A stretch of DNA of 32,431 bases from the IMG/VR virus record IMGVR_UViG_3300032164_000928, positions 1 through 32,431 of that record, one strand, 5' to 3'. The notes under the pieces were generated by a model. That model did no database searches and had not been told where the DNA came from. It worked only from the letters and a program-made list of their open reading frames with translations. This stretch comes from a virus (Duplodnaviria; Caudoviricetes). Below are positions 17,289 to 29,189 of this stretch, one piece after another. Within the stretch, counting starts at the first letter, position 1. Each line of letters starts with the position of its first letter. The translations under genes and the position numbers were made by a program.

Positions 17289-18526
17289 CACACCCCTCGC
17301 GCAGTAGACAACACAGGGATTACCAGAGGCTTGCCTGGAGGCAATCGTACGGTGGTCAGCTTGATCTTGTTGGTCCTCAAAATGTCAATTGCATGGTCGG
17401 GAGTACCGTACCACTTCTTTGATATCGAATACGCCGTGTCCCCTTGCTTCACGACATGCACGCCGAGGATCGTTCGAGACGTCGTGTTCTGCGTCGCCGT
17501 GCGACGAACTGCTTCGTTGCGAGCGCCACCCATCTGGGAGATTTGTGTCTGTGCCGACACCGCCATCACTTGTGACTGCCTCGCGAGTTCTCGTCCCGTA
17601 CCTATCGTGCTTCCAAAATACTTTGCAGACCGCGTGAGATCGGCAACGTTGTGCTTCGTTGTGTAGGCTTCCGGGGGCATACGGCTCATCGTGTCGCAGT
17701 ACTGATTGCAAATGTACGTCGTGTTTCTGGCTACGCTTAGTAACGAATTGGCTACGCTGTATGGTACGGCTCGGAACTTGTTCGCCATGTCTGCAACGCG
17801 ACGGAGGCTGTTGACTTGCTGCCGGACCGCGCGCCCGAACGAATCGGCAATCGCCATTGGAGCATTCGCCAGAGCTTCGAGCTGTCCTAATGTGAGAAAG
17901 GACGTACTCTTCTTGAGGCCCTTTGCGTAGGCATTGATCGCATTAAAGTTAACGGCCGTATAACACTGCTCGGCGTAGGACAGATACTTCGAAATACTCG
18001 ATGCCTCTTCGTCGTCGCGTGTAGCTACAACCTTCTGGACGGTACCGCCTCTGCTCTGCCACTCCCACTCGAATTTCCATTTGATGTCTTCGAGTCGGGT
18101 ATGTGGGAACTCCCAGGTCTTGCACCGACCCTCGCGTACGAGGTTGAATTCCTGCCCGAGATAGTCCTCTGCCACCCACGTTACACGAAGCCGTTGCCCG
18201 CTGTAGAATATGGAATCGAACAAATCTCGGAGCGTCGTCGGGTTGACTACGCTCGAACTGTTTCCACCACCTTCGCTATACTTGCACGGATTGCGACCCA
18301 ACAACGTACGATGCCATTCGCCCTCCCAAGAGACCGGAACTTCGCGAGGACCGAATACTTGCTGAGTTGCCTCTTGGGGGTTACCTGGGTACCACGCAGT
18401 GACTAGCTTTTGTTCGGTCTTCCATGCTACGCCTTGATGAGGAAGACCCGCACCGTGAAGCTCAACTCGCCGTTTCTGTCCGGCTAGCTCCTCGACAATG
18501 ACGACTGTAGCTCGTTGCTTCGGCAT
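17288..18526 (-). CDS. Tail tube initiator fused to C-terminal LysM domain (gpU+gpX-like)
   Basis: C-terminal HVVKQGDTAYSISKKWYG...ILRTNKI...PGKPLVIP is LysM-like; directly after TMP. Confidence 0.85.
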   Translation of the reverse strand: MPKQRATVVIVEELAGQKRRVELHGAGLPHQGVAWKTEQKLVTAWYPGNPQEATQQVFGPREVPVSWEGEWHRTLLGRNPCKYSEGGGNSSSVVNPTTLRDLFDSIFYSGQRLRVTWVAEDYLGQEFNLVREGRCKTWEFPHTRLEDIKWKFEWEWQSRGGTVQKVVATRDDEEASSISKYLSYAEQCYTAVNFNAINAYAKGLKKSTSFLTLGQLEALANAPMAIADSFGRAVRQQVNSLRRVADMANKFRAVPYSVANSLLSVARNTTYICNQYCDTMSRMPPEAYTTKHNVADLTRSAKYFGSTIGTGRELARQSQVMAVSAQTQISQMGGARNEAVRRTATQNTTSRTILGVHVVKQGDTAYSISKKWYGTPDHAIDILRTNKIKLTTVRLPPGKPLVIPVLSTARGV

Positions 18527-20547
18527 TATCCTAGGTTCCCCACTCTGCTCTGCGTCGGTGTCAGCGCGGCTTTCAAGAGGTCTCGTTGGAACACAATGGC
18601 AATACGGTCAGGATCTTGGTCTCTGAAGTCCTGTTTGATGTTGAACGTGTTTCCTCCACCAATGAGCGGACCCCTATGTGGGGGCGGAACTCCGCCTTTC
18701 CCCTTACCCACAAGTTCCGCAAGATTGTTTGCCGCCTGCTCGAATTCGGGCCCTGCTGCCTTGAGCGCTGCTATGAGTGCATCAAATCCTCCTGTTATGC
18801 TCTCTCCCGACATAAATAGCGAATACTGCAAAGCATTACTGTTAGTCAGCGTAGATAACGCGACCTGCATCAACCCGGCATTCCCTGATGCAGCTGCAGC
18901 ATTGAACATCGCACTGTATTGAGATGCCATATCGGCCATTGCAGCTTGGGTATCAGACTGAACGAGCATCTTCTCGCGATCCAAACTGTTGGCGAGCACA
19001 TCTCCAAATCCTATCTCAGGTACCGGAATGTTCCCCCCCGCCCCTCGCCCAGTGGACATAGATTCGGTGTTGGCATAGCTCGCTTGCGCCGCGATGAACT
19101 CTGCACGTTTACCTTGCAGAGCTATTTGTTGATCGACTACGGCCTCTTCCTTCTTGTTAAGTGCTAATTGTGCTTCCAACCCGCGATTTGCTACACCTAC
19201 AGTCTCATCCCATAGCAGATACGCGTTGTAGGCAGCAGTACCTACAGCTGCGATCGCAAGTGTCGCGGCACCTAATGCAACGGCTGCGCCCATTGCTCCA
19301 GCCGATGCGGCCATCCCGAATATGGGTGCTCCTGCAGCACCTGCGCTAGCTATTGCTTTCACGACGAACCCTGCACCTTGCGCTGCGGCACCTACACCGG
19401 GCACTCCACTTGCCGCTTTAGCTGCTGCTAACGCAAGGATAATCTCCTTGTGCGCAACCATGAATTGCAACACGGACATCAGCGCAGCAGAGCCCTTTTC
19501 GAGTGCGGACCATATCTCGTTGCTGTGCGTCTGTAGGTAATTGAATGCCTCTTGCATCTTGGCAGCGGCTTCTTTCGACCATGCGCCTACCTTGTCGCCT
19601 AGCGACTTAGCCCATTGTTCGACTGCATCCTTATGTTCTGTGAAGTACTTACGAAGTTGCTCTAAAGACGGACGTATTGCATCGAGGATGCCCTTCAACA
19701 CTGGAACTCCAACCGTCTCTAGTAACAACGCCTTCTGTTCCTTGATAGACGTGATGAGTTGCCCCATCGACATCGGAATGGTCTTGGCTTTCGCCGCCAT
19801 AATTTCAATGGCCTTTTCGGCCATTGCCGTAACCGGAGCTTGTCCGGTCTTCCCCCATTCAGCGGCAATTGCTTTGATGTGCTTTGGCGCCTTTGCTAAG
19901 GCATCCTCAGACGCCATCATAGTCATGTCCTTGGCAATCTCCTTTGCCGTACCTCCCATCAATCCAGCCTGTTTGATGAGCATTACAATTGGATTGCGCG
20001 CACGAACAACGCCCATCTCTACCATCTGGAAGCCTTGAGTTATCGCCTCAAGTCCCCCAGGCACAATACGTCCGGCCATCGCTGCTTGCTCGACCATCTT
20101 TGTAATGTGGTCGGTAGACTTACTCGACCGCGCGGAAATATCCTCAAAGGCTTCAACCATTGAATGATGGGACGTTCCGGTTTCAATTCCGACCATCTGC
20201 ATCTGATGGACGTAGCCTTCCGCTTGTTTCTGGAGACTGCCCCAACTTCGGCTAGGATCGGACACCATCATCAACGTGGACGCCATATGCCGAACTTCGG
20301 TATTGTGCGCCTTTGCTGCTCCGATCATCTCGGTCCACATACCGCCGAGCCCCGAGACCATACTGCCGATATTGACTCCGATAGCAACAGCTGCCGTCTG
20401 CTTCGCAAAGTCTGCGAGCTTACCTACAGCAGAACCGGCAGCCCCCGATACTCGGTCGAACCCACTCTTGATACTGCTCAACGCCGAACTTGCACGATCT
20501 TCGAGCTTTAGTACCGCCGCAACCTGAACTTCGGTATTCTCAGCCAT
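18526..20547 (-). CDS. Tape measure protein
   Basis: 673 aa, Ala/Gly-rich helical, N-terminal LKLEDRAS motif, hydrophobic segments; follows frameshifted chaperone. Confidence 0.9.
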   Translation of the reverse strand: MAENTEVQVAAVLKLEDRASSALSSIKSGFDRVSGAAGSAVGKLADFAKQTAAVAIGVNIGSMVSGLGGMWTEMIGAAKAHNTEVRHMASTLMMVSDPSRSWGSLQKQAEGYVHQMQMVGIETGTSHHSMVEAFEDISARSSKSTDHITKMVEQAAMAGRIVPGGLEAITQGFQMVEMGVVRARNPIVMLIKQAGLMGGTAKEIAKDMTMMASEDALAKAPKHIKAIAAEWGKTGQAPVTAMAEKAIEIMAAKAKTIPMSMGQLITSIKEQKALLLETVGVPVLKGILDAIRPSLEQLRKYFTEHKDAVEQWAKSLGDKVGAWSKEAAAKMQEAFNYLQTHSNEIWSALEKGSAALMSVLQFMVAHKEIILALAAAKAASGVPGVGAAAQGAGFVVKAIASAGAAGAPIFGMAASAGAMGAAVALGAATLAIAAVGTAAYNAYLLWDETVGVANRGLEAQLALNKKEEAVVDQQIALQGKRAEFIAAQASYANTESMSTGRGAGGNIPVPEIGFGDVLANSLDREKMLVQSDTQAAMADMASQYSAMFNAAAASGNAGLMQVALSTLTNSNALQYSLFMSGESITGGFDALIAALKAAGPEFEQAANNLAELVGKGKGGVPPPHRGPLIGGGNTFNIKQDFRDQDPDRIAIVFQRDLLKAALTPTQSRVGNLG

Positions 20548-20863
20548 TGCGTTCGTTCCATCCAGGTACAGCGTCCTCGTTTTCCAACATTTCAGTTAGT
20601 ACGGCAGTTGCGGCATCCAACTCCGCAACAGGTCGGTGATTCCATCCGAAGAAGTCCACACGTCCGTACCTTGATAGTGCCATCTTCTGCCGCATTCTAG
20701 CCTTCACCCGATCTTCCACATCGAACTCTATCAAATGCCAGGCAGGTGCCGGCTCACCGTAGATTTGAGCGACTAGGAGCGTCTTGCACGCCTCGTAGTG
20801 CTCGTACAAATCGAAGGGCTCCCAGCCCTCGCGGGCTAAGAGACGTCCTCGATATGCAAACAA
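20540..20863 (-). CDS. C-terminal (-1 frame) part of tail assembly chaperone, lambda gpT-equivalent
   Basis: Overlaps the chaperone 3' end in the -1 frame just after a slippery heptamer; only a TTG start without RBS. Confidence 0.8.
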   Translation of the reverse strand: MFAYRGRLLAREGWEPFDLYEHYEACKTLLVAQIYGEPAPAWHLIEFDVEDRVKARMRQKMALSRYGRVDFFGWNHRPVAELDAATAVLTEMLENEDAVPGWNERNG

Positions 20864-20875
20864 TTGACGAAAAAA
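20799..20875 (-). promoter_or_regulatory. Programmed -1 ribosomal frameshift signal: T_TTT_TTC (20875-20869) plus downstream hairpin (20862-20799)
   Basis: GAT TTT TTC in chaperone frame; -1 frame reads RQLFAYRGRLL... to 20540; hairpin core CTCTTAGCCC-GCGA-GGGCTGGGAG. Confidence 0.85.
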
Positions 20876-21429
20876 TCGGCTTGGTCCTCCGAACTTAGAG
20901 CATGCGTCTTGAGATACACATTGATGAGCTGTTGCCGATAAGCCGGTCCGATCTCATCCCAGAACGTGTTGACATTTCCTGGCCCGGGCCTCCCCGACCA
21001 ATCAACTTTCACACCGTCGATTGCCCGAATAGTCATTTTCGTCATCTCGGACACCGAACGAAGGTTTTCGCCCATACACCGCTTAAGGGACACCATCTCT
21101 TCAGACGCAGTGAGCCCCCATATGATGATGCTACGATCTCCCTTGCTTGGAATTCGAGTGAGCTTAGCCTTGCAGCGTACGTATGTGACAAGCACCTCGG
21201 GTGGCATGGCAAGATTTGGGGGCACGACAACCCAAGCTGGATGCGTTCCGTGCGGCCGCGGTTCGACATCGTCGATTGCCAGAATGGGTTCTACAGCGTC
21301 GCTGGATTCTGGGCCAACTTCGCCTAAGAGTGCCTTCTCTTCGAGAGTGAGATTGGTAGATACCGTCGCTCGGACGGCGTCGGCAAACGTATCAGGTTTA
21401 CCCCTCTGCCGTTGTGCTGCTGCGTTCAT
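20836..21429 (-). CDS. Tail assembly chaperone, lambda gpG-equivalent
   Basis: Between tube and TMP, GGAGG RBS 7 nt upstream, slippery site near the 3' end. Confidence 0.85.
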   Translation of the reverse strand: MNAAAQRQRGKPDTFADAVRATVSTNLTLEEKALLGEVGPESSDAVEPILAIDDVEPRPHGTHPAWVVVPPNLAMPPEVLVTYVRCKAKLTRIPSKGDRSIIIWGLTASEEMVSLKRCMGENLRSVSEMTKMTIRAIDGVKVDWSGRPGPGNVNTFWDEIGPAYRQQLINVYLKTHALSSEDQADFFVNCLHIEDVS

Positions 21430-21552
21430 TACTGCGCCTCCAGTTAGGGTGGGCTCTCTCGGGGAGGTTGGAGGCGCAGGTTTAGCTGCGGGTGACCACC
21501 TCGATAGAGCCCAGAAACGGGCCTAAACCCGACTGCGCCTCCGTCCACATGC
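21430..21552 (-). promoter_or_regulatory. Structured intergenic RNA with RBS, anti-RBS and anti-anti-RBS segments
   Basis: Plus-strand actgcgcctcc at 21431-21441 and 21532-21542, complement at 21469-21479; second inverted pair 21450-21464 / 21499-21513 (13 of 15). Confidence 0.7.
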
Positions 21553-21981
21553 TTAGATCCTTTGCGGAACTTCGCACATACCGTCTAGCTTGACCTTCAC
21601 ATAGTCACCACGGGAACTGATGTTGATAGGCGTAGCTCCGAACTTTGCGTCCCCAAACATCATGGTCGGGGACTCCCCGTTCGGGAAGTTCATGACGGCC
21701 AGGATGTTGAACTGTAAGTCTGGGGTTACACGCATTTGCCGGTCCAGGATGGATTGATGGAAATCAAACCATTCTGTTGCATGCAGGTTCAGTTCGAGAT
21801 CGAACTTCGTCTGATTGTAGATGTCATCAACCTGATTCCACTTCTCGCCAAGGTAGCCTTGAGTCTTGGTTTCAGATTGAAACTCTGCATTGAAGTTCTG
21901 AATGTCCGTTAGAGTAGTCTGCGGTTCACCTGCTTTGCAGATGATAATCTGCACTTCTTGGCCTTTCAACCTTTGAGACAT
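21553..21981 (-). CDS. Tail tube protein
   Basis: 142 aa, beta-rich, directly after sheath; RLKGQEV...QGYLGE pattern. Confidence 0.85.
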   Translation of the reverse strand: MSQRLKGQEVQIIICKAGEPQTTLTDIQNFNAEFQSETKTQGYLGEKWNQVDDIYNQTKFDLELNLHATEWFDFHQSILDRQMRVTPDLQFNILAVMNFPNGESPTMMFGDAKFGATPINISSRGDYVKVKLDGMCEVPQRI

Positions 21982-22003: not shown

Positions 22004-24199
22004 CTAGACTGTTTCAGTCGTCGTGATAACCGACTCGCCGATCATGGTTTCAAGCGTAATACTATCCAAACTGGATAGCGTGCGGATCTTCAACACTAGT
22101 CGGTAGAGACCCATGGCGAGCTCGGTTGGCGTATTTGACGAATCGCTCAAGGAGTAGCTATTCTGTCGGTTCTTGAGCGTATCCATGTAAGCGACGATCT
22201 CGCCTTTGACTGCCTTACGGCGCATAGCAGTTGCGAGCTTCTTCGAAAAACCCTTGAGACGGAGAGCCATGGTGTCTTGCACCATGTCTGCGTACCGGCG
22301 ACGCGCGATGTTTCGGTAGTTCGGGTACACGGCAGGATCGACACTTGTCACACCTGATTGGAAGAACGCGGTTCCTCCGTCGATACGGATCGCACAAATG
22401 CCAGACGACCTGAAGTTTGTGTAGTCGATGATCGTGAAGCCTTGGGCATTCGGGCTTGTTTCGACACTGTTGATTGCAGTGAGGAATGGAGTTTCTTGTC
22501 CGGGATTCTCTTCTGGCGGAAGCTGTGACATCAAACTGGCGAGGAACCCATCGGCCCCCACGTCGACAGCTCCAGTTGCGGTGAAGCCTGCACCTCCTGC
22601 AGTCCCTCGGGTGGCAATCGACGGTACCGTCGTGTTGACCCCAGGATAACAGTACGCTACCCGTTGGTCTCTGTACGCGCCGACTCCTGGTTCAGCTGCC
22701 GTACTGCGAGCCGTCGAACGTGTGATGCCAAGAGGGGCGCGAACACAAGCGAACCGCCCAAAGCATCCGTTCGCACTAGCATCAATTGCATTCGACTTTA
22801 CCATACGACGGACAGTGTTGGACTGGCGAGCACAGAAGGAGATGTTGACCTCCTTTGCAACCGAGTTCAGATCGACGGTGCTGGCATAAGCTGTTGTGTA
22901 GGTGGCATCAATTGCAGCTTCCGACAATGCGGCCACTAGCGGCGCGTAATTGATGCATGCAAAAGCGCCAATGTCTGGTGCGTCGTATACGGTCGTGATC
23001 GTACCTGCAACAGCTCCCACATTCGTTCCGTCGTCGAGTGCTGGGCGAACCTTCATAGTATAAGGTCCCGCACTAGCAGCCGTAATGCTCACATCCTGCA
23101 TGGTGACCCACTCGGTCCCACCGGAGTTCCGCACGCGCGTGCCTGCGGATAGCATACCTGCGTCTCCAGTTGCGGCACTAACTACAACATCCAACGGAGC
23201 GAATCCAAACGCGATTGCAGTTGAAGTACTCTTGACTTTCAATGTGCCCGTGCCTGGAATACCGATGTTGATCATCCGAATGCGAGATTGACTGTCTGTT
23301 GTGACCTTGAGATTCGGATCGGCTGCGACGCAGACCGTGTGAGCTTCAGATACGCTAACGGCTGCAATGTTCTGTACGTTACACGTACCAGGAGCCGGAT
23401 GCGTAACCGCAGCCGACAAGCCTAGCTTGGTGAGTACGCCTGTAGAGCCACTCACCACACCGACCGTACTTGCATTGCCCTTGATGCGAGCAGTCAGCCG
23501 AAGCTCACCACCAGACACTGTGGCGAATGTCCAACCAGCATATTGATTGATGCGAGCCGCAACCTGTGTGGCGGTCTGGTCACTGGACAAGAAAGTCGTG
23601 GTGAATTGCGGTTGATCGTCCCAGTACAACGTGAGCGTTTCACCACCAGCAAACACCGTCGGGTAGGTACCACCAGAGCCGGTCACGGCTGCTACGATTG
23701 CAGTAAACGTAGCTGTCACATCACCGGCGCCGCTATCGACAATTAGCGTCTGCCCCGAGTCAAGTACGTACCGCCATGCCGCAATACCTGTAAGCATTGC
23801 GCAACGGGTAAACGTCACAGACCCGGTACTCGTATCCGCGCGCACAAGCACGAGACGCTTGAACTTCTTTCCGTTGAGCTGCACGATAGAGTTACCGTTC
23901 CAATACTCATCGACAAGCGCTGCATCTGCACGACGCTTGACGGCGCAAGGATTGTTAGCTATCACCCCTCCGTAGGCGTAGCCGTGCGTTCCGAACACGT
24001 TCTTCAAATCGGTTGAGCTTGACACCTCTGTTGGCGTATTGAACGGGCCGTTTTCAAACTCCCCTACCAACATCACAGTACCTGTACCGATCCCCTGAAT
24101 GCTAGCAGGCGGTTCTAGGTCGAGAATGTTGATGGACTCGATCTCAAGCAGCACCTCATTGCCCGGATCGAAGAGAAATCGTCTAATGAAACCACTCAT
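22004..24199 (-). CDS. Contractile tail sheath protein with inserted domains
   Basis: IQGIGTGTVMLVGEFENGPFNTPTEVSS..DL..VFG N-terminal motif; C-terminal YRNIARRRYADMV. Confidence 0.93.
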   Translation of the reverse strand: MSGFIRRFLFDPGNEVLLEIESINILDLEPPASIQGIGTGTVMLVGEFENGPFNTPTEVSSSTDLKNVFGTHGYAYGGVIANNPCAVKRRADAALVDEYWNGNSIVQLNGKKFKRLVLVRADTSTGSVTFTRCAMLTGIAAWRYVLDSGQTLIVDSGAGDVTATFTAIVAAVTGSGGTYPTVFAGGETLTLYWDDQPQFTTTFLSSDQTATQVAARINQYAGWTFATVSGGELRLTARIKGNASTVGVVSGSTGVLTKLGLSAAVTHPAPGTCNVQNIAAVSVSEAHTVCVAADPNLKVTTDSQSRIRMINIGIPGTGTLKVKSTSTAIAFGFAPLDVVVSAATGDAGMLSAGTRVRNSGGTEWVTMQDVSITAASAGPYTMKVRPALDDGTNVGAVAGTITTVYDAPDIGAFACINYAPLVAALSEAAIDATYTTAYASTVDLNSVAKEVNISFCARQSNTVRRMVKSNAIDASANGCFGRFACVRAPLGITRSTARSTAAEPGVGAYRDQRVAYCYPGVNTTVPSIATRGTAGGAGFTATGAVDVGADGFLASLMSQLPPEENPGQETPFLTAINSVETSPNAQGFTIIDYTNFRSSGICAIRIDGGTAFFQSGVTSVDPAVYPNYRNIARRRYADMVQDTMALRLKGFSKKLATAMRRKAVKGEIVAYMDTLKNRQNSYSLSDSSNTPTELAMGLYRLVLKIRTLSSLDSITLETMIGESVITTTETV

Positions 24200-27589: not shown

Positions 27590-27620
27590 CTCTACCGACC
27601 CTCCCACCCTTAGATGCCAA

Positions 27621-27674
27621 TGTTAGAGGGGGCCAAGCAGGCACGGTTCCCCGTGGCTCATGGTCCCCCCAACA
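27621..27674 (-). terminator. Long stem-loop just downstream of the capsid gene (stabiliser/attenuator; no U-tract)
   Basis: TGTTGGGGGGACCA...CACGG-GGAA-CCGTG...TGGCCCCCTCTAACA; G-U pairs and the GNRA loop work on the minus strand. Confidence 0.55.
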
Positions 27675-27680
27675 CACTAG

Positions 27681-29063: not shown

Positions 29064-29189
29064 TGTCGTTTCTCCTGTTAGTGTCACATCCTTGTGCCCG
29101 CGCTCAATATCCCGTTCCGACTGTTAACCGCCGTCGTCGCGTGTGGGTTAGCGCGCGGTGCGCTCATTTACCTAGCAACACAGCACTCC
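29064..29189 (-). promoter_or_regulatory. Possibly structured 5' leader of the capsid gene
   Basis: CGCGCT-AA-CCC / GGG...AGCGCG helix enclosing short CGC/GCG and CGAC/GTCG crossing stems. Confidence 0.4.

What the first reader, a model, noticed from the sequence alone, without database searches (positions are those of the whole stretch)
21430..21552. Candidate two-state RNA switch gating translation of the tail assembly chaperone
Seen: in an operon with almost no spacers, this 123-nt gap reads on the mRNA as a (GGAGGCGCAG-ucgg-GUUUAG), b (UGGGCUCUAUCGAGG), a' (CUAAACCUGCGCCUCCA), b' (CCCCGAGAGAGCCCA), a'' (UGGAGGCGCAGUA-AUG, the chaperone RBS). a' can pair with the RBS (11 bp, OFF) or with the decoy a (10+6 bp, ON); these are mutually exclusive. 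b:b' (13 of 15) crosses both helices, giving pseudoknot topology or a third state. The decoy starts 10 nt after the tube stop codon. Inference: a terminating ribosome, a protein or RNA cleavage could flip the fold and so set the tube:chaperone ratio. I do not recognise it as a described riboswitch or ribozyme.
Basis: partly seen in the sequence, partly recalled or inferred. Interest (0 to 1): 0.85.

Follow-up and report, generated by a model that had tools for sequence, protein, structure and literature searches.

The report
Phage tail-chaperone RNA switch
Between this phage's tail-tube gene and its tail-chaperone gene lies a messenger-RNA segment whose pairing pattern is kept in about 50 related phage sequences, in which one strand is predicted to cover either the chaperone's ribosome-binding site or an upstream look-alike, so it likely limits how much chaperone is made; what flips it is untested.

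Summary
The element is conserved behind tube homologues of one phage clade: 46 of 62 loci by eye, plus two with wholly different a/a'/RBS sequences. None of the 46 sister-clade loci has it. All three helices covary (cognate versus swapped partners, permutation p 5e-5). G-U versus A-C counts of 87 to 4 in b:b' point to sense-strand RNA. b:b' is the strongest helix and probably the scaffold; a' pairs with the decoy or the RBS. No Rfam family matches. No leader peptide or terminator U-run is conserved. Best reading: a bistable anti-SD switch, caught ON by the decoy during transcription and drifting or pushed OFF, which limits G/GT output. The trigger (folding time, ribosome, protein) is unresolved and no RNA data exist here. 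This scan noted the same design before on other genomes.

The parts
22004..24199 (-). Tail sheath gene (731 aa)
   Evidence: phrog_23 tail sheath, E 7e-13
21553..21981 (-). Tail tube gene (142 aa)
   Evidence: No PHROG or Pfam hit. Atlas model matches a DUF2001 tail-tube cluster at TM 0.77. Lies after the sheath. 126 homologues.
21482..21550 (-). 22-codon ORF starting 2 nt after the tube stop; probably incidental
   Evidence: Seen; no conserved counterpart in 47 element loci
21533..21542 (-). a: decoy copy of the chaperone RBS (anti-anti-SD), starting 10 nt after the tube stop
   Evidence: covaries with a'
21523..21528 (-). GUUUAG: extends a:a' by 6 bp or pairs below b:b'; seen in this phage only
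   Evidence: not seen in relatives (by eye)
21495..21513 (-). b: 5' strand of the long scaffold helix, beginning at the conserved GGG
   Evidence: cognate partner best in 34 of 47 loci
21475..21490 (-). Predicted apical hairpin inside b:b' that hides half of a' and displays the CUAAAC loop
   Evidence: MFE; many relatives fold a' into a small local hairpin
21469..21485 (-). a': anti-SD strand, partner of either a or the RBS (core 21479-21469)
21448..21464 (-). b': 3' strand of the scaffold helix, plus the conserved CCC-ACC end (21453-21448)
21432..21442 (-). a'': Shine-Dalgarno region of the chaperone gene
   Evidence: -9.3 kcal/mol with a recalled 16S 3' end
20836..21429 (-). Tail assembly chaperone G, long type (197 aa)
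   Evidence: Atlas feature hits to Phage_TAC_5 and TAC_1 clusters at 0.90-0.91, a lead only; position; slippery site
20869..20877 (-). Predicted -1 frameshift site GATTTTTTC leading into the T reading frame (20540-20863)
   Evidence: a slippery run near the gene end in 43 of 50 complete long chaperone genes
18526..20547 (-). Probable tape measure gene, overlapping the end of the T frame by 8 nt
   Evidence: Position and size only; no family hit

Best explanation
The spacer is a conserved messenger-RNA structure that likely limits translation of the tail chaperone: its anti-SD strand a' is predicted to pair either with an upstream decoy (ribosome site free) or with the chaperone's ribosome site (blocked), on a long b:b' helix that would serve as scaffold. 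Shown by comparison: the three helices and their covariation. Inferred: a:a' forms first on the growing transcript, so the site is open when it is made. After b:b' forms, the two pseudoknotted states are predicted to be close in energy, so the RNA would relax to, or be pushed into, a partly closed state whenever the decoy is released. This would set G, and through the frameshift GT and the overlapping tape measure, below the level of tube. The folding-time route needs no ligand and is my first choice of trigger (about 0.4 of this reading). Ribosome occupancy of the decoy (0.3) and a bound protein (0.3) remain open.
For: Anti-RBS helix better than shuffles at p<=0.05 in 38 of 61 long-chaperone loci against 1 of 46 short-chaperone loci. 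Cognate versus swapped partners, mean kcal/mol: b:b' -34.4/-19.6, a:a' -23.2/-19.9, RBS:a' -20.8/-17.4, each p 5e-5; the same holds in 30 loci under 65% tube identity. Non-consensus a' bases are matched by both decoy and RBS in 37 of 245 cells against 13.6+-3.4 in permutations. L084 keeps the layout with different a/a'/RBS sequences; L016 and L111 change a' and the distant RBS together (by eye). b:b' has 87 G-U pairs against 4 A-C 1x1 loops, and the sense strand is more stable in 36 of 47. The a' core pairs upstream in the nascent prefix in 38 of 47. Blocking the decoy raises the SD-opening cost by over 2 kcal in 27 of 38 models, and from 7.9 to 15.0 in this phage. Crude pseudoknot energies differ by a median of 1.9 kcal (ON lower in 15 of 38), and linker lengths allow both states in 35-36 of 38.
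Against: No RNA-level data. The 47 element loci were picked by eye and b was anchored by its pairing, which inflates the b:b' test. The cognate RBS is the single best partner of a' in only 9 of 46, and RBS:a' shows no strand asymmetry (20 of 46). RBS complementarity is lost or weak in L012 (-6.9), L021 (-8.6) and L005 (-12.1) while a:a' and b:b' persist. In 8 loci the module stays at the tube stop when other genes separate it from the chaperone, which fits a role at the end of the tube mRNA. 14 of 62 clade loci lack the full element. Pseudoknot energies use a recalled penalty, and one search uses forced-unpaired surrogates.
Confidence: 0.6

Rival explanations
1. Ribosomes finishing the tube gene, or 30S subunits caught by the SD-like decoy afterwards, strip a from a' and so close the chaperone site: inverse coupling to tube traffic.
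For: The decoy starts within 21 nt of the stop in 38 of 46 loci, and extra hairpins lie after it (25) more often than before it (8) of 47. A footprint to +16 raises the SD-opening cost in 19 of 38 models. The decoy is a good SD in 40 of 47.
Against: A footprint to +10 does so in only 4 of 38. The decoy has lost SD character in 7 of 47 while still pairing a'. It lies 105 and 384 nt from the tube stop in L106 and L019, although a 68-codon ORF ends 15 nt before the L019 decoy. SDs of the short-chaperone genes sit at similar distances, so the position may be inherited.
Confidence: 0.2
2. A phage protein (free G, GT or tube) binds the conserved base of b:b' and locks the closed pseudoknot: autogenous repression like L20 on the rpmI operator.
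For: Conserved non-canonical columns next to the helix base: U.C 24 of 37, A.C 26 of 37, C.A 21 or U-A 10 of 37. The element occurs only with the long chaperone type.
Against: Element and long chaperone share one branch (100/99), so the co-occurrence is one event. The extra N-terminus is acidic (median net charge -8). Insert residues are as conserved in 13 loci outside the element set as in 37 within it. The conserved bases may be a tertiary turn.
Confidence: 0.2
3. The a:a' plus b:b' pseudoknot is mainly a 3'-end device for the sheath-tube mRNA (nuclease block, processing site or partial terminator), and pairing to the RBS is secondary.
For: The module stays at the tube stop in 8 loci with inserted genes, some of them antisense. 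b:b' is long (median span 19 nt). a:a' is stronger than a':RBS in 34 of 46.
Against: A U-run follows b' in only 4 of 47, and the consensus scan finds no terminator here. Three-way compensation with the RBS and anti-RBS hairpins in clade members that lack the element (L105, L100, L020) show selection on RBS pairing.
Confidence: 0.15
4. A chance duplication of the RBS or a DNA-level palindromic insertion without regulatory function.
For: The decoy resembles the RBS and lies where the ancestral RBS would lie. The nested folding z-score is -0.44.
Against: Conserved across tubes 39-62% identical to the window's; compensatory changes; G-U bias for the sense strand; one copy in the window and found only behind tube genes.
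Confidence: 0.03

Closest known systems
ColIb-P9 (IncI-alpha) repZ pseudoknot switch (PMC4705826, passages read)
   Same: Alternative pairings decide access to an SD; a loop-presented GGCG/CGCC contact nucleates a pseudoknot; a ribosome stopping upstream is the proposed trigger.
   Different: There the pseudoknot with the SD-adjacent strand activates, needs a leader peptide and is countered by an antisense RNA. Here the loop strand carries CGCC and blocks the SD, a decoy copy competes, and no leader peptide is conserved.
Levivirus (MS2) maturation-gene 5' UTR, delayed folding (PMC4615214, passages read)
   Same: An upstream complementary strand blocks the SD, and an earlier-forming pairing sequesters that strand so that a low-copy virion protein is translated briefly.
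   Different: MS2 uses a small metastable hairpin in an RNA genome leader. Here the trap is a 10-16 bp copy of the RBS in an intercistronic DNA-phage mRNA, crossed by a long helix; transience is not shown.
E. coli rpmI-rplT operator bound by L20 (PMC1888825, passages read)
   Same: Intercistronic long-range pseudoknot next to the downstream initiation site; repression passes on by translational coupling.
   Different: No binding protein is identified here; no decoy SD copy is described in the passages read.
Expression platforms of translational riboswitches (SD / anti-SD / anti-anti-SD; recalled, no paper read)
   Same: Three-segment logic.
   Different: No Rfam match; conserved bases are nearly all the switching strands plus about 6 nt at the helix base; a structural gene rather than a metabolic gene follows.
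Lambda G/GT frameshift (PMC5009743, passages read)
   Same: Same gene cassette; the 30:1 G:GT ratio is crucial and about 192 tube subunits are used, so stoichiometry matters.
   Different: It sets G against GT during elongation; this element would set G against tube at initiation.

Membership tests
Any Rfam 15 family | Match to a covariance model at gathering score | tested here: not met
   0 hits in the window; only E 3.9 and 6 near the spacer; none on the element in 12 relatives
Metabolite riboswitch | Anti-SD / anti-anti-SD expression platform | tested here: met
Metabolite riboswitch | Sequence-conserved aptamer | tested here: inconclusive
   Conservation is limited to a, a', RBS and a small helix-base motif
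Metabolite riboswitch | Ligand-dependent refolding | not testable with these tools
   Needs probing with and without ligands
IncI/IncB rep pseudoknot | Leader peptide whose stop lies at the switch | tested here: not met
   AUG 4-12 nt after the decoy SD in 12 of 47; lengths, stops and frames scattered
IncI/IncB rep pseudoknot | Loop-presented GGCG/CGCC contact | tested here: inconclusive
   The GCGCC core is the most conserved part and often folds into a small loop, with polarity reversed
IncI/IncB rep pseudoknot | Antisense RNA from the opposite strand | not testable with these tools
   No RNA run listed
MS2-type delayed-folding control | Earlier-forming pairing hides the anti-SD | tested here: met
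   Predicted in 38 of 47 nascent prefixes; equilibrium folding of prefixes, not kinetics
MS2-type delayed-folding control | Final fold closed, open fold transient | tested here: inconclusive
   OFF lower than ON in 23 of 38 crude estimates, median gap 1.9 kcal
Protein-bound translational operator | Binding by an operon-encoded protein | not testable with these tools
   Only indirect: acidic N-terminus and a single shared branch
Intrinsic terminator | Hairpin followed by a U-run | tested here: not met
   4 of 47 loci; none at this spacer
Self-cleaving ribozyme | Catalytic core matching a known class | tested here: not met
   No Rfam ribozyme match; cleavage itself not testable

The most novel reading that the evidence does not exclude
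Long-tailed phages carry an unrecognised first tier of tail stoichiometry control: a double-pseudoknot RNA that senses tube translation or free tail protein and meters G, GT and tape measure upstream of the known frameshift, with the same design arising in unrelated phage lineages.
Probability: 0.25. Interest if true: 0.85.

Novelty: new variant of a known kind. Interest (0 to 1): 0.62.

Why it matters
Tail assembly needs about two hundred tube subunits, fewer chaperones and very little tape measure from one mRNA. The G:GT frameshift ratio is understood (PMC5009743), but I found no described control of the tube:G step (paper searches). This element gives a concrete, mutable candidate with about 50 natural variants, including losses, gene insertions and fully rewritten sequences. 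It is also a compact natural example of one loop strand switching between two pseudoknots on a shared helix.

Tried and rejected
No cultured relative: blastn and tblastn of the tube region found nothing in 50,697 phage records. The capsid protein has only 28-30% matches, so the host is unknown. The tube profile found no locus in the GTDB genome scan. The motif scan there gave 14 hits with no tube, sheath or chaperone nearby, read as chance. Viral motif scans gave 5, 11 and 4 hits, of which 4, 2 and 1 lie behind tube homologues; the rest show no b:b' layout by eye. No RNA holder listed; contigs of four DNA runs showed no variant in the spacer, and two of them did not cover it. A leader-peptide model was rejected. 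The 14-bp anti-RBS at +465 in L012 first looked like a long-range switch; it is the reverse complement of the similar RBS and start of an antisense gene, so I discount it, though it counts among the 38. No correlation between b:b' length and linker length (rho 0.13). AlphaFold was busy; the PDB sequence search gave nothing meaningful. MAFFT could not align b with its partner columns, so only a sequence-only model was built. It found held-out members L007, L086 and L022, one copy in the window, and one weak hit (E 0.32, away from the spacer) among short-chaperone loci, but missed many true members. Whether the motif is among the unnamed candidates of PMC10690425 or PMC5737381 could not be settled: no term matched in the readable supplements of the first, its model and alignment files were unreadable, and the supplement of the second was too large.

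Full report
Context. The window is the head and tail operon of an uncultured contractile-tailed phage, all on the minus strand: major head protein (phrog_1357), sheath (phrog_23) and baseplate wedge (phrog_6) are recognised. The 142-aa gene after the sheath has no HMM hit, but its Atlas model matches a tail-tube cluster at TM 0.77. The 197-aa gene after the spacer has chaperone-like Atlas neighbours (a lead only). It ends in a slippery run before an overlapping frame, as do 43 of 50 complete genes of its type, so I read it as the G/GT chaperone. The tape measure label rests on position and size only.

Observation. With the RBS fixed, an 11-bp anti-RBS stem arose in 9 of 20,000 shuffles, both stems of 8 or more in 3, and a b:b'-strength duplex in 1 of 150. 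None of 30 other starts in the window exceeds 6 bp. Nested folding alone is not unusual (z -0.44), as expected if the helices cross. Rfam has no match.

Relatives. A tube alignment retrieved 160 loci with a tube stop, 118 distinct. Of these, 61 have a long chaperone (173-244 aa where complete), 46 a short one (113-168 aa), and 11 were left unclassified for short contigs, a near-duplicate or no hit. L162 was added from a motif scan. The two types lie on either side of one branch of the tube tree (100/99). Start codons were chosen by hand as the best SD in frame. An anti-RBS stem beat shuffles at p<=0.05 in 38 of 61 long loci and 1 of 46 short loci. By eye, 46 of 62 long loci carry the full layout: decoy, optional hairpin, RY-GGG, b, optional hairpin, a', b', CCC-ACC, RBS. 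L093 carries it on a contig too short to show the gene. L084 and L016 carry it with different switch sequences. Of the other 14, some keep an anti-RBS helix or a b:b'-like helix without a clear decoy (L105, L100, L020, L042, L051, L065) and some show neither (L018, L023, L029, L090, L091, L159, L161); L030 looks degenerate.

Covariation. Cognate partners beat swapped partners for all three helices: b:b' -34.4 versus -19.6 kcal/mol (cognate best in 34 of 47), a:a' -23.2 versus -19.9 (6 of 47), RBS:a' -20.8 versus -17.4 (9 of 46), each with permutation p 5e-5. The same holds in 30 loci under 65% tube identity. The b:b' figure is inflated because loci and the b anchor were chosen by pairing. Decoy and RBS were aligned to a consensus independently of their own a', dropping L005 and L012 for low scores. 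Non-consensus a' bases were then Watson-Crick matched by the decoy in 85 of 261 cells (null 59.5), by the RBS in 89 of 249 (null 55.4) and by both in 37 of 245 (null 13.6+-3.4). Relatedness is not fully removed from these counts, but compensations fall in separate branches (L095, L031, L107, L011, L115, L108). b:b' holds 87 G-U pairs against 4 A-C 1x1 loops and is more stable on the sense strand in 36 of 47; a:a' in 30 of 47; RBS:a' shows no bias, 20 of 46. Next to the helix base, three columns keep U.C, A.C and C.A or U-A (37 of 47 loci counted, 10 left out for doubtful anchors).

Specificity. Full elements appeared only behind tube homologues in three viral motif scans, and the 14 GTDB hits lacked tail genes. 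A sequence-only model found one copy in the window.

Mechanism. Shown: three conserved helices, two of them mutually exclusive through a'. Inferred: the order of synthesis favours a:a' first (38 of 47 nascent prefixes; in this phage until b' is complete). Crude estimates with a recalled pseudoknot penalty put ON and OFF within a median 1.9 kcal, and linker lengths allow both. With b and b' taken out of competition, blocking the decoy raises the cost of opening the SD in 27 of 38 loci. So the decoy is predicted to hold the site open, and its loss closes it. A terminating ribosome covering 10 nt past the stop does this in only 4 of 38, and coverage to +16 in 19 of 38. Seven of 47 decoys are no longer SD-like, and no leader peptide is conserved. 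I therefore favour a folding-time or mixed-state limiter, as in the MS2 maturation leader (PMC4615214, passages read), over strict ribosome coupling. Protein binding at the conserved helix base stays open. A role at the 3' end of the tube mRNA is a real rival, because the module stays at the tube stop in 8 loci with inserted genes and RBS pairing is weak in L012, L021 and L005.

Comparison and novelty. It works like a riboswitch expression platform (recalled), the ColIb-P9 rep pseudoknot (PMC4705826, passages) and the rpmI operator (PMC1888825, passages), but fails or cannot be tested for their defining features. Full-text searches listed no paper whose title or abstract start describes such an element between tube and chaperone genes. 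Term searches inside PMC10690425 and bioRxiv 10.64898/2026.10.21.760802 found no relevant passage, but unreadable supplements of PMC10690425 and PMC5737381 may hold it unnamed. Earlier notes of this scan describe the same design on other genomes, including a T5-like lineage. These are unchecked AI notes, and I did not test the T5-like claim. Verdict: a real, conserved, apparently undescribed structured RNA; a new variant of translational control by SD sequestration; trigger unresolved.

Noticed in passing
window 20869-20877 (-): Slippery GATTTTTTC at the end of the chaperone gene; a slippery run occurs in 43 of 50 long-type and 19 of 45 short-type genes, the latter with several different heptamers.
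   Followed up: partly
L004, L007, L009, L012, L016, L090, L091, L111, L112, between tube and chaperone: A 163-202 aa gene is inserted between tube and chaperone; it resembles HK97 gp10-like tail proteins (label recalled, not tested). In L004 it has its own a''-like RBS.
   Followed up: partly
L016 after the tube stop; L030 antisense in the spacer: ORFs that look like HNH-type homing endonucleases (label by eye) are inserted at or in the element.
   Followed up: no
L108 1-147: Partial group I intron match (RF00028, E 3.5e-6, below gathering score) upstream of the tube gene.
   Followed up: no
L100, tube stop +46 to +297: A 72-aa Cys-rich ORF in the spacer contains an anti-SD that can pair with its own RBS or with the chaperone RBS.
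   Followed up: partly
L105, L020, L042, L051, L065 spacers: Simpler anti-SD hairpins or b:b'-like helices without a clear decoy: possibly independent or reduced ways of damping the chaperone RBS.
   Followed up: partly
window 29088-29189 and 27608-27680 (-): 102-nt and 73-nt gaps flank the major head gene; no anti-RBS stem over 6 bp; not folded or compared.
   Followed up: no
window 21040-21250 (-): Long-type chaperones carry a conserved insert with P.W...P, WT..P..GDR motifs that is absent from the short type.
   Followed up: partly
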